Positions 16,523 through 20,694 of a stretch of DNA of 64,000 bases are shown here, in pieces. Location of the stretch: the NCBI GenBank assembly GCA_051531975.1, contig JAOPTT010000014.1, positions 64,001 to 128,000 on the forward strand, given 5' to 3'. This DNA is from Spirochaetaceae bacterium. GTDB lineage: Bacteria > Spirochaetota > Spirochaetia > DSM-2461. A program made the translations under genes and the position numbers. Under the pieces are notes generated by a model, which was not told the DNA's origin, did not search any database, and saw only the letters and a program-made list of their open reading frames with translations. Position 1 is the stretch's first letter, and every line of letters starts with the position of its first letter.

Positions 16523-17463
16523 GTGGAAAAGCAACTAGAGAAGCGTACGGTGAAGCGATATTAGAATTAGGAAAGGCAAATCCAGATATATATATAGTAG
16601 ATGCAGATATTGGTAAATCATGTAAAACTACTGCATTTTTTGAGCAGTTACCTAGACAACATATAAACGTTGGAATTGCAGAGCAAAACTGTTGTGGTGT
16701 AGCCGCTGGTTTAGCAACAACAGGTAAAATTCCATTTGTAACTACATATGCAGTATTTGGTAGTATGAGAATGGTTGAACAAATAAGACAAGAAGTTTGT
16801 TATCCTAAATTAAATGTTAAAATAGCATGTTCACATGGCGGATTTACTCCTGCAAGTGATGGTGCAAGCCACCAAGCTATTGAAGATATGGGTATTTTAA
16901 GAACTATTCCAGGTATGACAGTTATTATGCCTGCAGACTACTACTCTGCTAAAAAATTAGTTCATGCTGCTGCGAAAATGCATGGTGCTGTTTATTTAAG
17001 ATTTACTAGAGACCCAATACCATTTATCTACCCAGAAGATGCTGAGTTTGAAATTGGTAAAGCGGTTGAATTAAAGAAAGGTTCTGATCTTGCAATTATA
17101 GCTAATGGAGATATTATGTCTATTGCTGTTAAAGCTGCTGGAGAGCTAGAGAAACAAGGGGTATCAGTTAGAGTATTAGATATGCATACAATAAAACCAC
17201 TAGATGAAGATGCTGTGAACAGAGCAATTGATGAGTGTGGTAAAATAATTACTGTTGAAGACCACAATATTTTAAATGGTTTAGGTAGTGCAGTATGCGA
17301 AATTGTAGCTGAACGTGGTAAAGGTAAAGTAAAACGTGTAGGAATCCAAGATAAATTTGGAGAGTCTGCACCATATGAGTATCTACTTGGTATTAATGGT
17401 ATTACTATCGGGAATATAGTAAAATCTGCCCAAGAGATGCTTAAACAGAGAGGTAAACAGTGA
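16519..17463 (+). CDS. transketolase, C-terminal subunit
   Basis: VGIAEQN, DGASHQAIED, TVEDH; 4-nt overlap with the N-subunit gene. Confidence 0.95.
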   Translation: MSGKATREAYGEAILELGKANPDIYIVDADIGKSCKTTAFFEQLPRQHINVGIAEQNCCGVAAGLATTGKIPFVTTYAVFGSMRMVEQIRQEVCYPKLNVKIACSHGGFTPASDGASHQAIEDMGILRTIPGMTVIMPADYYSAKKLVHAAAKMHGAVYLRFTRDPIPFIYPEDAEFEIGKAVELKKGSDLAIIANGDIMSIAVKAAGELEKQGVSVRVLDMHTIKPLDEDAVNRAIDECGKIITVEDHNILNGLGSAVCEIVAERGKGKVKRVGIQDKFGESAPYEYLLGINGITIGNIVKSAQEMLKQRGKQ

Positions 17464-18416
17464 AAATAGTAGTACTAGATGGTTATTCATTAAATCCTGG
17501 TGATCTATCCTGGGATGGATTTAAAAGCCTAGGAGATTTTGTCTGTTACGACAGAACAGAGATAAAAGATATATTAGCAAGAATTGGCAATGCTGAAATT
17601 GTAATTACAAATAAAACACCCTTAGGTGCAGAAATAATTTCAGCATGTCCAAAGCTAAAATACATTGGTGTTTTAGCAACAGGATATAATGTTGTTGATG
17701 TAAAAGCTGCAACAGATAATAGTGTAACGGTTTGTAACATCCCAACTTATGGTACAGCTGCAGTAGGGCAATTTGTTTTTGCTCTACTTCTAAATATTTG
17801 TCACCATGTACAAGATCATAGTGATGCTGTTAAAAAAGGACAGTGGACTAGTTCCCCTGATTTTTGCTTTTGGAATTATCCATTAACAGAGTTAGCAGGT
17901 AAAACTTTGGGTATAATTGGTTATGGTAGAATTGGGCAATCTACAGGTAAAATTGCTCAGGCTTTTGGTATGAATGTTATCGCATTCGATGCATATCATA
18001 ATAAAGATTTAGTTTGCGATACAATGAAGTATGGAACATTAGATGATCTATTAAAACAATCTGATGTTATATCACTTCATTGTCCACTATTTGAATCTAC
18101 GGTCGGTATAATAAACAAAGATAGCATAGCTAAAATGAAGGATGGAGTTATTATTATAAATACATCTAGAGGGCCTTTAATTGTAGAGGATGATTTAGCT
18201 GTAGCTCTTAAAAGTGGTAAAGTTAGAGCTGCTGGTTTAGATGTTGTATCAACTGAACCAATAACTTCTGAAAACGTACTACTTAATATAGAGAACTGTT
18301 TTATTACACCACATATTGCTTGGGCTCCTATTGAAGCTCGAGATAGACTAATGAACATAGCTGTAGATAATCTTAAATGTTTTATCGATGGTAATAATCA
18401 AAATAGTGTAAACTAA
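17460..18416 (+). CDS. D-2-hydroxyacid dehydrogenase (glycerate dehydrogenase/hydroxypyruvate reductase type)
   Basis: MKIVVLDG..NPGDLSW, GYGRIG, INTSRG, TPHIAW. Confidence 0.9.
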   Translation: MKIVVLDGYSLNPGDLSWDGFKSLGDFVCYDRTEIKDILARIGNAEIVITNKTPLGAEIISACPKLKYIGVLATGYNVVDVKAATDNSVTVCNIPTYGTAAVGQFVFALLLNICHHVQDHSDAVKKGQWTSSPDFCFWNYPLTELAGKTLGIIGYGRIGQSTGKIAQAFGMNVIAFDAYHNKDLVCDTMKYGTLDDLLKQSDVISLHCPLFESTVGIINKDSIAKMKDGVIIINTSRGPLIVEDDLAVALKSGKVRAAGLDVVSTEPITSENVLLNIENCFITPHIAWAPIEARDRLMNIAVDNLKCFIDGNNQNSVN

Positions 18417-18438
18417 TATAGATCAAAAATATCCTATG

Positions 18439-18471
18439 GAGGACTTGTTATAAACAAGTCCTCTTCTATTT
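18439..18471 (+). terminator. intrinsic terminator of the catabolic operon
   Basis: GAGGACTTGTT-ATA-AACAAGTCCTC followed by TTCTATTT. Confidence 0.85.
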
Positions 18472-18565
18472 ATAACATAGTTATTTACATATAAAATAAA
18501 AAATTGTTTCAATTTTTCTATATTCAGTGTGATAATAGAAAACAGAAATTAAAGGATGTATTACT

Positions 18566-19072
18566 ATGTATGATACTCGTAATGAAATATGGAATTCTAC
18601 TTGGAACTCATATTATGATACTTTTTATCAAGAGTTATTAGCTGAAGAATTAGAAGTTAGATGGAAGCGATTTGATGACATATCTAGAATTCTTATAGCA
18701 ATTACCGCATCAACCTCTGCTATATCTGGTTGGGCACTATGGAGTAATAAAGACTTCAAAATTATTTGGGTTTTTCTTGCAGCAATCGGCGCATTACTTT
18801 CTTTAGTTACGAAATCATTAGATATTCCCAGGAGAATATCCGATTGGAATGATTCAAAAAAATATTTCACAACACTTAGAATTGATTACCAAATTTTTTT
18901 AGATGAACTAGGGTTTAATCCCGAATTTTCTACTATCGATGCAACCGTAACAGTTCGTAATCTCAGACTAAGATATGCTGAAGGTTATAAGGAGATGCTT
19001 AATGATTCCTTCATAACTCAGAAACTTAAAATCATGATACAAGATAGTGTTAACAATAACATGAAACAATAG
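18566..19072 (+). CDS. 2-TM protein with SLATT-like architecture
   Basis: Amphipathic N-helix, two TM segments (ILIAITASTSAISGWALW; IIWVFLAAIGALLSLV), helical C-terminus; AAGGA RBS. Confidence 0.6.
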   Translation: MYDTRNEIWNSTWNSYYDTFYQELLAEELEVRWKRFDDISRILIAITASTSAISGWALWSNKDFKIIWVFLAAIGALLSLVTKSLDIPRRISDWNDSKKYFTTLRIDYQIFLDELGFNPEFSTIDATVTVRNLRLRYAEGYKEMLNDSFITQKLKIMIQDSVNNNMKQ

Positions 19073-19097
19073 TATACTTATAGTAAGGAGTAATAAA

Positions 19098-19172
19098 ATG
19101 GGAATCAAATCAGGACCACCAAAACCAAAGCCATCACCACCACCTAGACCAATGCCATCATCATCTAAATAA
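19098..19172 (+). CDS. 24-aa proline-rich peptide MGIKSGPPKPKPSPPPRPMPSSSK (not in ORF track)
   Basis: TAAGGAG 7 nt before ATG; 9 Pro codons (8 CCA) form a C-rich patch in AT-rich DNA. Confidence 0.7.
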   Translation: MGIKSGPPKPKPSPPPRPMPSSSK

Positions 19173-19199
19173 AAATCACAAAAACATCCTGCTCTAATT

Positions 19200-20156
19200 T
19201 TATATTAATGATAATAGAATATATAAAATAGGAACTGTATAAATTAAAGTACCCATTGTAAATAGCCAGGAAGTATTAGATAAGTCTATATCTAGATCGT
19301 AAACAGTTGGCGGAACTAAGGATGCAAACCCTGAAGGCATAGCTGATAAAATAAGTATAACTTTAATAACTAAGCCATTCTCCAAAGTATTTAATCCAAG
19401 TAACATTGCTATGGAAAATATTATAGTAGGAACCATTAAAGATTTAATTACAGCAATGGCAATACTATTTCTATAATGTCTTTTTATACTGGTAAAGTGA
19501 AACGCCATTCCTATTGATAACAGAAGCAAAACAGTTGCTCCAGTAATCAAGAAACTATTTAAAGATGCATACCATCCAGGCCTAACAGCTCCAGAAAAAT
19601 TAAGAATAAGACCAATTGTAATCGCAGTTAACATAGACATGATAAAAGGATCTTTAAAAATAGCTTTTAGCCTACTCTCCTTCTCTCCAACATGATCAGA
19701 ATATGATTTAGCAACTGGAAAGCCAATACCATAATTTACGAGCTCTTCAAATAGTTTATATAGTGGAACAATACTAAAACCAGGTTCTCCTAAAAAGAAA
19801 AATACAATAATCCCACCTACAGAACCTATATTAGTAAAAGCTCCAGAAGTTATTAACGAACCAGTCTGCTTTCGACCTATCCCCTTAGCTTTACAATATA
19901 TAAAAGCTAAAAAACCACCAGTAATAATAGCTGTGGCTCCAACAAATGGGATACTTATTATTTTCAGATCTTTTAATGGAGTTATCCATACAGCACCTAA
20001 AAATGCTATAGGGTTTAATAACTGTAATGCTACTCTTTGTAATACGATTCTAATCTTTTTTAAGCTTCCGATTTTTTTATTGAAGATTCTACCAAATAAG
20101 TAACCAGCAACAAGACTTAAAAATATCAATAATAGTGGTGATAAAAATGATTTCAT
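19200..20156 (-). CDS. AEC (auxin efflux carrier/malate permease) family transporter
   Basis: FTNIG..G, IFKDPF, LLSIG and LSAMPSG motifs; about 10 TM. Confidence 0.85.
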   Translation of the reverse strand: MKSFLSPLLLIFLSLVAGYLFGRIFNKKIGSLKKIRIVLQRVALQLLNPIAFLGAVWITPLKDLKIISIPFVGATAIITGGFLAFIYCKAKGIGRKQTGSLITSGAFTNIGSVGGIIVFFFLGEPGFSIVPLYKLFEELVNYGIGFPVAKSYSDHVGEKESRLKAIFKDPFIMSMLTAITIGLILNFSGAVRPGWYASLNSFLITGATVLLLLSIGMAFHFTSIKRHYRNSIAIAVIKSLMVPTIIFSIAMLLGLNTLENGLVIKVILILSAMPSGFASLVPPTVYDLDIDLSNTSWLFTMGTLIYTVPILYILLSLI

Positions 20157-20180
20157 AATCAATTATATCCAGTACTAAAT

Positions 20181-20241: not shown

Positions 20242-20694
20242 ATGAATAGTAAATTACCAAGAATAGGAACAGGTGTTGTTGTTTTTAATAAACAGGGACA
20301 GATTTTAATGGGTAAAAGAACATATAAACCAATTGGTTATAGTCTACCTGGTGGACACCTTGAATTTGGAGAAACTCTAAAAGATTGTGCAAAGCGGGAA
20401 GTATTTGAAGAAGCTGGTGTAGAAATCGAAAATATTGAGATAATAACTATAGGCGAGAACCTGTTTCTAGATAAAAACTTTCATAGTATCTCTATATTTA
20501 TATTTTCAACTATTAAAGATGACCAGATATTACAAAATCCAGAACCAGATAAATGTGATGGTTGGAACTGGATAAGTATAGATAATATTCCAAAAAATCT
20601 CTCTTTTAACTACGACCCAATATTTACTAATGATTTTAAGTTAATAAAAAATTACTTGCAGAGTCATTTTAAAAATTACTTGGAAAGTTATTAG
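20242..20694 (+). CDS. NUDIX hydrolase (NUDT15/MutT-like)
   Basis: PGGHLEFGETLKDCAKREVFEEAG Nudix box; EPDKCDGWNW. Confidence 0.92.
   Translation: MNSKLPRIGTGVVVFNKQGQILMGKRTYKPIGYSLPGGHLEFGETLKDCAKREVFEEAGVEIENIEIITIGENLFLDKNFHSISIFIFSTIKDDQILQNPEPDKCDGWNWISIDNIPKNLSFNYDPIFTNDFKLIKNYLQSHFKNYLESY

What the first reader, a model, noticed from the sequence alone, without database searches (positions are those of the whole stretch)
18520..19172. SLATT-like 2-TM gene plus unannotated proline-rich micropeptide: candidate two-gene defence or toxin-antitoxin module
Seen: a self-contained unit between an operon terminator and a convergent gene, inside the GntR regulon but without its operator. It has its own extended -10-like TGTGATAAT, a 168-aa protein with helix-TM-TM-helix layout, and 25 nt later a TAAGGAG-led 24-codon ORF MGIKSGPPKPKPSPPPRPMPSSSK (9 Pro, basic, with PP and PPP runs). 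The larger gene uses CGT/CGA codons that are uncommon in its neighbours. Known: SLATT 2-TM domains are predicted pore-forming effectors of nucleotide-signalling conflict systems, and polyproline runs need EF-P. No cyclase or SLOG partner is present here. Inference: an inserted module in which the peptide inhibits, triggers or translationally gates the membrane effector.
Basis: partly seen in the sequence, partly recalled or inferred. Interest (0 to 1): 0.78.

Follow-up and report, generated by a model that had tools for sequence, protein, structure and literature searches.

The report
SLATT effector paired with proline micropeptide
A membrane protein distantly related to the cell-killing SLATT effectors of bacterial immunity is followed, in about nine of ten relatives from several phyla, by an overlooked tiny proline-rich gene instead of the usual signal-making enzyme, and the pair likely forms an undescribed anti-phage switch in which the peptide would hold the membrane protein shut.

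Summary
Confirmed and extended. Both ORFs are at the stated coordinates, in a ~730-nt segment missing between the same two flanking genes in a same-genus genome. The 168-aa protein is SLATT-like by profile, language-model and fold searches, but scores below the SLATT_4 cut-off. It founds a rare, patchy family (267 representatives). The 24-codon peptide is not chance: 62 of 68 homologue clusters have a Pro-rich small ORF right behind the gene (66 of 68 after hand inspection), against 9 of 189 control ORFs and 0 of 58 upstream windows. Its prolines are kept while codons drift. No cyclase, SLOG, TIR or RT gene accompanies the pair; 0 of 5 canonical SLATT_4 loci have the peptide. In two or three loci both genes lie between attC-like sites, as one integron cassette; 9 of 64 loci have defence-type neighbours. 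Best reading (inferred, 0.4): a labile basic peptide binds the acidic, aromatic N-terminal helix and blocks pore opening until phage stops its supply. The codon-usage and EF-P gating arguments are not supported. Translation, binding, toxicity and defence are untested. No description was found in ten literature searches.

The parts
18438..18464 (+). Intrinsic-terminator-like hairpin closing the upstream sugar-acid operon; left boundary of the unit
   Evidence: a different hairpin sits at the same place in same-genus genome G003
18465..19197 (.). About 730-nt segment present here and missing between the same two genes in G003 (approximate ends)
   Evidence: the two coding ends are 57 nt apart in G003; GC 0.307 against 0.315 for the genome
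18528..18536 (+). Extended -10-like TGTGATAAT, possible promoter (weak evidence)
   Evidence: 94 copies genome-wide
18551..18556 (+). Ribosome-binding-site-like AAAGGA of the membrane gene
   Evidence: read from the sequence
18566..19072 (+). 168-aa SLATT-like two-TM protein: acidic and aromatic N-terminal helix, two hydrophobic helices (about residues 40-59 and 66-84), C-terminal helices
19084..19090 (+). Strong ribosome-binding site TAAGGAG of the peptide gene
   Evidence: an SD-like motif precedes 50 of 62 homologous peptide ORFs
19098..19172 (+). 24-codon basic proline-rich micropeptide gene, conserved partner of the membrane protein
17460..18416 (+). Left flank, not part of the module: 2-hydroxyacid dehydrogenase
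19200..20162 (-). Right flank, not part of the module: convergent membrane transporter (PF03547)

Best explanation
The two genes form a conserved unit found across several phyla, and it is likely an anti-phage, toxin-antitoxin-like switch in which the membrane protein is predicted to be a SLATT-type pore former and the peptide would bind it and keep it shut until infection cuts off the peptide. Shown: the pairing, its order (membrane gene first, peptide gene directly behind, often with overlapping stop and start), selection on the peptide's prolines, SLATT-like sequence and fold, no signal-making enzyme nearby, a patchy distribution, and carriage between attC-like sites in a few loci. Inferred: that the peptide is translated in excess from its own RBS; that, basic and polyproline-like, it docks on the acidic, Trp/Tyr-rich N-terminal helix, one repeat per subunit; that it is short-lived, so host shut-off or a phage protein that cuts or binds it frees the pore and the infected cell aborts. 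Odds: real two-gene unit 0.97; anti-phage or other conflict function 0.65; this inhibitor mechanism 0.4.
For: Pairing: 62 of 68 clusters at 90% identity, 54 of 59 at 70%, 47 of 50 at 60%, against 9 of 189 control ORFs, 8% of 2040 shuffles and 0 of 58 upstream windows. Selection: in 12 hand-picked close peptide pairs, mismatches fall 58/39/156 on codon positions 1/2/3, and 56 of 97 kept prolines changed codon. Close membrane proteins carry similar peptides (tree). Charge match: residues 4-38 average net -2.9 with 7.3 aromatics over 129 sequences, peptides +4.5; Y17, E23, W59, W68 nearly invariant. Several peptides are internally repeated or doubled (L134, L083, L147, L144), which suits multivalent binding to an oligomer. 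Conflict context: 9 of 64 loci have a defence-type gene among the two nearest on either side, including CapH/CapP directly upstream in L151; attC-like sites enclose both genes in L182 and L184, and in L076 at a looser threshold. Precedent: a constantly made signal holds a 2TM effector off in Panoptes (PMC13434031, passages), and the same logic is proposed for the DRT10 SLATT (10.1101/2025.10.16.682844, passages).
Against: No expression, binding, toxicity or phage data exist. The defence-neighbour rate (9 of 64) has no background control, and many copies, including this one, sit between housekeeping genes. SLATT_4 scores are below cut-off (24.8 of 55 bits; no Pfam hit for the window protein). 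Peptide sequences are loosely conserved (27% mean column identity even in a chosen set of 38) and 3 of 62 are not basic, which is little for a specific inhibitor. One locus has an intact-looking membrane gene without a clear peptide (L042, 71% GC). Charge complementarity fits an activator equally well.
Confidence: 0.4

Rival explanations
1. The peptide is the trigger, not the brake: a bait that a phage protein cuts, modifies or protects from turnover, after which it binds and opens the membrane effector.
For: The peptide takes the place that signal-making enzymes hold beside other SLATT genes (CD-NTase-like genes upstream in 2 of 5 canonical SLATT_4 loci, read from sequence motifs; TIR in type VII Thoeris). 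In L196 the Pro-rich stretch heads a Gly linker and a Hint domain, which would release or ligate it. The charge match fits too.
Against: A constitutive RBS and coupling to the effector gene would make an activator dangerous unless it needs modification; no modifying enzyme recurs nearby. The Hint fusion is 1 of 68 clusters.
Confidence: 0.22
2. The peptide is the toxin, a home-made relative of proline-rich antimicrobial peptides that would block the ribosome exit tunnel, and the membrane protein sequesters or exports it.
For: 47 of 62 peptides meet the two compositional criteria for such peptides (Pro at least 25%, net charge at least +1; criteria from PMC11678341, passages), and 44 of 62 contain PRP. 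In L149 and L178 the peptide is fused to a RelE/ParE-like domain.
Against: No signal peptide, transporter or peptidase recurs. Composition alone is weak evidence. Two of three other relatives of the RelE-like domain lack the peptide and the third has only a short Pro/Lys start, so that fusion looks secondary. SLATT proteins are described as effectors, not antidotes.
Confidence: 0.12
3. A non-defence accessory pair (envelope stress, selfish addiction module or transport), with the peptide as a subunit or assembly factor of the membrane protein.
For: 55 of 64 loci show no defence-type neighbour. No relative in the plasmid or phage collections (one query) or in 120 viral pattern loci.
Against: SLATT ancestry, sporadic spread (0 of 40 relatives; 1 further full-strength and 1 weak hit in 600 sampled genomes of two phyla), cassette carriage and broken copies (L152, L170, L194) are typical of conflict genes.
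Confidence: 0.12
4. The membrane protein is an orphan effector that answers to a nucleotide made elsewhere in the genome; the peptide only tunes translation or mRNA stability.
For: Known SLATT effectors respond to nucleotides. The own genome has one TIR-domain gene elsewhere.
Against: No SMODS match in the own genome (98% complete) and in 4 of 5 other carriers. The N-terminal helix is acidic, whereas ThsH is predicted to have basic pockets. The peptide is downstream and often lacks stalling motifs.
Confidence: 0.1

Closest known systems
SLATT-effector systems: type I CBASS with SLATT_4 (PF18186), DRT10/UG17, type VII Thoeris (ThsH), Shaseng
   Same: Two-TM helical effector with weak but consistent profile and fold similarity; two-part operon.
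   Different: All of these pair the effector with an enzyme that makes a nucleotide or cDNA (passages). Here the only constant partner is a 17-81-residue Pro-rich peptide; 0 of 5 canonical SLATT_4 loci have one. Scores are below family cut-offs.
Panoptes / mCpol-2TM-beta
   Same: Proposed logic: a constantly supplied molecule keeps a 2TM effector from oligomerising, like an antitoxin (PMC13434031, passages).
   Different: The brake there is a cyclic dinucleotide made by an enzyme, and the effector has a beta domain; here the brake would be a ribosomally made peptide, which is inferred only.
DUF6338 operon with three proline-rich small proteins in Pseudomonas stutzeri (PMC10433244)
   Same: A conserved gene with Pro-rich micro-ORFs in one predicted operon; those peptides were detected by mass spectrometry (passages), so such ORFs can be translated.
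   Different: A different protein family; the authors call the peptides unconserved beyond the species, and their function is unknown. No homology to the present protein was tested.
Proline-rich antimicrobial peptides (oncocin, apidaecin, drosocin)
   Same: Size, Pro content, positive charge, PRP motifs.
   Different: Those are animal peptides secreted against other cells; these are bacterial ORFs without export signal, tied to a membrane gene; activity untested.
Streamlined anti-phage integron cassettes (10.1101/2024.07.02.601686; 10.1101/2024.07.02.601719)
   Same: Small one- or two-ORF cassettes, often with transmembrane pore candidates (passages); some copies of this module lie between attC-like sites.
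   Different: Neither text contains 'SLATT', 'proline' or 'peptide'; the window copy has no attC-like site.

Membership tests
SLATT superfamily (2TM effectors) | Two adjacent TM helices flanked by long soluble helices | tested here: met
   AF2 model, pLDDT 95; mean hydropathy 1.11 and 1.65 for the two segments over 129 sequences. The first segment is only moderately hydrophobic.
SLATT superfamily (2TM effectors) | Sequence or fold similarity to SLATT proteins | tested here: met
   Atlas features 0.96 to clusters with SLATT_4 in 14-33% of members; PADLOC RT-associated SLATT E 1.2e-5; hhalign to 5 canonical SLATT_4, probability 80, E 1.3e-5, 130 columns; 7 of the top 20 viral fold matches are named SLATT, TM up to 0.78.
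SLATT_4 (PF18186 / NF033632) | Score at or above the curated cut-off | tested here: not met
   NF033632 24.8 bits against 55; no Pfam hit at E up to 1; 17 of 102 family members hit PF18186 at E up to 0.1.
CBASS / DRT10 / Thoeris VII SLATT systems | Adjacent CD-NTase, SLOG, RT or TIR gene | tested here: not met
   None among 104 neighbours scanned with Pfam or 147 with PADLOC; none in the window flanks.
SLATT superfamily (2TM effectors) | Oligomerises and breaches the membrane when activated | not testable with these tools
   Needs experiment.
Type II toxin-antitoxin pair | Two small genes in one operon, tightly coupled | tested here: met
   Peptide starts -38 to +27 nt from the stop in 60 of 62 clusters.
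Type II toxin-antitoxin pair | Protein antitoxin binds and neutralises the toxin | not tested
   No complex prediction was obtained; needs experiment.
Type II toxin-antitoxin pair | Antitoxin with a DNA-binding domain for autoregulation (typical; recalled) | tested here: not met
   Median peptide length 28.5 aa, one third proline; no family hit.
Proline-rich antimicrobial peptides | Pro at least 25% and net charge at least +1 | tested here: met
   Window peptide 9 of 24 Pro, net +5; 47 of 62 homologues.
Proline-rich antimicrobial peptides | Antimicrobial activity through the 70S ribosome or DnaK | not testable with these tools
   Needs experiment.
Leader / arrest peptides | Lies upstream of the gene it controls | tested here: not met
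   0 of 58 upstream windows hold a Pro-rich ORF; the peptide is downstream.
Integron gene cassette | Bounded by attC sites | tested here: inconclusive
   Own regex-and-fold detector, not IntegronFinder: none in the window; both sides in L182 and L184, and L076 at a looser threshold; one side in L137, L139, L196; 2 of 804 random controls. An earlier detector found both sides in 0 loci. No integrase was sought.

The most novel reading that the evidence does not exclude
A new class of bacterial immune switch in which a ribosomally made, unstructured polyproline micropeptide replaces the nucleotide second messenger of a SLATT pore, and one instance of a wider, overlooked layer of proline-rich micropeptides that act as the sensors, brakes or tags of minimal defence systems.
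Probability: 0.4. Interest if true: 0.88.

Novelty: new variant of a known kind. Interest (0 to 1): 0.74.

Why it matters
How SLATT effectors are switched on is stated as an open question in the DRT10 papers read here. A 170-residue effector with a 20-residue natural partner and no enzyme is the simplest SLATT system one could test, and the peptide can be synthesised. The partner gene is below normal gene-calling limits, so defence-system pipelines would list the membrane protein as a lone hypothetical gene; the finding suggests that other lone membrane effectors also have hidden peptide partners. If the peptide instead acts on ribosomes, it would be a bacterial counterpart of animal proline-rich antimicrobial peptides.

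Tried and rejected
Word-based homologue search found only one relative; the full HMMER scan found 267. Single-protein and alignment scans of viral contigs found no relative, nor did 120 viral pattern loci, plasmids or phages (one query, L069). A search for longer, fused forms found none, which is weak evidence. PDB searches gave only generic helical bundles. No complex prediction was available, so binding is open. No RNA holder was listed; the one RNA run from the same sample laid nothing, which says nothing about expression. Codon-usage evidence for foreign origin was rejected. A conserved terminator after the peptide was rejected (4 of 61), so the signal is not an RNA hairpin read as prolines; all four Pro codons are used. 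A conserved third gene was rejected: the largest cluster of neighbours has 4 proteins from 3 loci. SLATT_4 hits in the own phylum were sub-threshold chance matches to other proteins. A distant hit (L358, E 1e-9) has no clear peptide, in GC-rich DNA; it is not in the counts. The first attC detector missed sites seen by eye and was replaced, so the second was tuned on these loci. The paper that defined SLATT (Burroughs 2015) is not held; I cite it only through other papers. Literature searches without a description of this pair. Supplements were not read, and defence-system tables in closed supplements could list this family.

Full report
Observation. The window holds a 168-codon ORF at 18566-19072 and, 25 nt later, a 24-codon ORF at 19098-19172 with 9 prolines and net charge +5, led by TAAGGAG at 19084-19090. 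They lie between a terminator-like hairpin at 18438-18464, which follows a 2-hydroxyacid dehydrogenase, and the stop of a convergent PF03547 transporter at 19200. In the same-genus genome G003 (71% complete) the orthologues of those two flanking genes (76% and 64% identical) are 57 nt apart, so about 730 nt are present here and missing there; one comparison does not tell gain from loss. The family was not found in 40 relatives. The palindrome that marks the upstream operon is absent from the unit.

The membrane protein. It has no Pfam hit but scores 24.8 bits on NCBIfam SLATT_4, cut-off 55, and E 1e-5 to 6e-4 on three PADLOC 2TM/SLATT models. The Atlas places it at 0.96 beside clusters in which 14-33% of members carry SLATT_4. 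A full scan found 267 representatives at E up to 1e-3, 177 at 1e-10. Of 102 aligned members, 17 hit PF18186 weakly. The family profile aligns with five canonical SLATT_4 proteins over 130 columns (probability 80, E 1.3e-5). The model (pLDDT 95) is a long helical hairpin; 7 of its top 20 viral fold matches are named SLATT, while PDB searches give only generic bundles. It is a distant SLATT-like subfamily, not a SLATT_4 member by cut-off. Three members looked up carry only the name 'hypothetical protein'; six others carry none.

The peptide is a conserved partner. Degenerate patterns from the conserved core were run on genomes (120 loci, scan stopped at its limit, flanks for 80), metagenomes (84 loci) and viral contigs (120 loci); five short genome loci were re-fetched. 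An HMM kept 110 ORFs, none viral. I dropped 25 rows that were truncated, split, duplicated or had under 140 nt downstream, leaving 85, the window included. Of these, 77 have a small ORF with at least 5 Pro in 12 residues starting -40 to +90 nt from the stop; by cluster, 62 of 68 (90% identity), 54 of 59 (70%) and 47 of 50 (60%). Controls: 9 of 189 other ORFs in the same loci, one of which is the same peptide seen through another frame; 8% of 2040 shuffles; 0 of 58 upstream windows. Of the six negatives, L160 has the peptide overlapping the gene end, L149 and L178 carry it as the N-terminus of a RelE/ParE-like protein, L196 as the N-terminus of a Gly linker and Hint domain, L194 has a truncated membrane gene and no peptide, and L042 is unclear. 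Named carriers include Planctomycetota, Acidobacteriota, Pseudomonadota, Nitrospirota, Chloroflexota and Smithella. The patterns favour members with a canonical core, and the loci of the closest representatives could not be fetched.

It behaves as a coding gene. Peptides are 17-81 aa (median 28.5), 33% Pro, 10% Arg, 9% Lys; 50 of 62 have an SD-like motif, ten start at -4 or -1 (stop-start overlap), and all four Pro codons are used. The consensus of 38 chosen peptides is GPPxPxPxPxPRPK. In 12 close pairs that I picked, mismatches fall 58/39/156 on the three codon positions; alignment by protein biases this upward. Close membrane proteins have similar peptides (quick tree). In the own genome it is the top Pro-dense ORF of 4359. 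No conserved hairpin follows (4 of 61). Translation itself is not shown. Pro-rich small proteins in a predicted operon with a DUF6338 gene were detected by MS in P. stutzeri (PMC10433244, passages).

Context. No third gene recurs. Among the two nearest genes of at least 100 aa on each side in 64 loci (147 proteins in PADLOC, 104 of them in Pfam), none is a CD-NTase, SLOG, TIR or RT. Nine loci have defence-type neighbours: type I restriction (L077), SoFic (L145), CapH/CapP directly upstream (L151), GmrSD and methylase (L154), AbiTii (L155), nSTAND1 (L160), SIR2 (L175), Abi-alpha (L183), Mrr (L208); I ran no background rate. I did not count HEAT, radical-SAM and dehydrogenase hits. Many others sit between housekeeping genes. 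A home-made detector, tuned after a first version failed, finds attC-like sites on both sides of the pair in L182 and L184, in L076 at a looser threshold, and on one side in L137, L139 and L196, against 2 of 804 random positions: in those loci both genes appear to move as one cassette. Integron cassettes often encode small defence systems (10.1101/2024.07.02.601686 and .601719, search listing and passages). Five canonical SLATT_4 loci from 401 genomes have no Pro-rich ORF behind them, and two have a CD-NTase-like gene upstream by my reading of sequence motifs. No SMODS match was found in the own genome or in 4 of 5 other carriers. The family is rare: one further full-strength and one weak hit in 600 sampled genomes of two phyla, none in plasmid or phage collections.

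Mechanism. SLATT proteins are described as membrane-breaching effectors switched by a partner's product (passages of 10.64898/2025.12.03.692087; 10.64898/2026.04.29.721553; 10.1101/2025.10.16.682844; 10.1101/2024.12.27.630466; PMC11381338). Here the peptide holds the partner's place. The N-terminal helix is acidic (mean -2.9) and rich in aromatics (7.3 of 35 residues), the peptides are basic (+4.5), and aromatic grooves are the usual binders of polyproline helices (recalled). I infer direct binding. A partner that is made constantly, unstructured and from its own strong RBS fits a brake better than a trigger, as in Panoptes (PMC13434031, passages) and as proposed for the DRT10 cDNA. Loss of the peptide on host shut-off would open the pore and abort infection. 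I give this 0.4; trigger or bait 0.22; ribosome-targeting peptide toxin 0.12; non-defence role 0.12; orphan nucleotide receptor 0.1. Cis gating through EF-P is unlikely, because the peptide is downstream, 20 of 62 have PPP and 8 of 62 have no PP.

Novelty. Ten literature searches found no SLATT-peptide pair; 10.64898/2026.04.06.716658 (passages) mentions SLATT only as an extra gene. Closed papers and supplements were not seen. Earlier notes of this scan show no report on this family but describe Pro-rich micropeptides beside DUF6338 and beside E1-E2/JAB enzymes; these are unchecked leads that hint at a wider theme. Verdict: a real, undescribed two-gene module, a new variant of the SLATT-effector kind, function inferred; interest 0.74.

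Noticed in passing
L196:4378-5043 (+): Behind the membrane gene, the Pro-rich stretch is fused through a run of glycines to a Hint domain (Pfam PT-HINT, TIGR01445), followed by an array of six attC-like sites. Self-cleavage would release a Gly-ended peptide or ligate it to a target.
   Followed up: partly
L149:869-1243 and L178:840-1211 (+): The peptide is fused to a RelE/ParE-like domain of a small undescribed family (4 proteins found); no antitoxin gene follows directly in L178, and a MazE/AbrB-like gene lies further on in L149.
   Followed up: partly
L144, just downstream of the membrane gene: Two tandem Pro-rich peptide ORFs instead of one.
   Followed up: no
L152, L170, L103/L219, L205: Broken or shifted copies: split membrane genes (L152, L170, L219), a decayed peptide in L152, and a frameshift that joins the peptide to the membrane protein in L205. 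Some may be sequencing errors.
   Followed up: no
L151:976-2303: A CapH/CapP-like regulator pair lies directly upstream of the module on the same strand.
   Followed up: partly
window 7797, 10282, 10348, 11174: Four copies of the palindrome TTGTATACAA, two between the tandem GntR-type genes and the sugar-acid operon, two inside coding regions; likely operators.
   Followed up: no
window 20677: The contig of DNA run X1 has 23 more letters here than the window and ends loosely at 20692, at the end of the NUDIX gene.
   Followed up: no
G000 contig C6, + strand near 420095: An RBS-led 38-aa ORF with Cys and Pro/Gly near its end that looks like a modified-peptide precursor (by eye).
   Followed up: no
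L355 and L356, L357: Canonical SLATT_4 genes without a cyclase: one behind an FRG-like gene (motif recalled), one alone, one behind an unnamed 260-aa gene.
   Followed up: no
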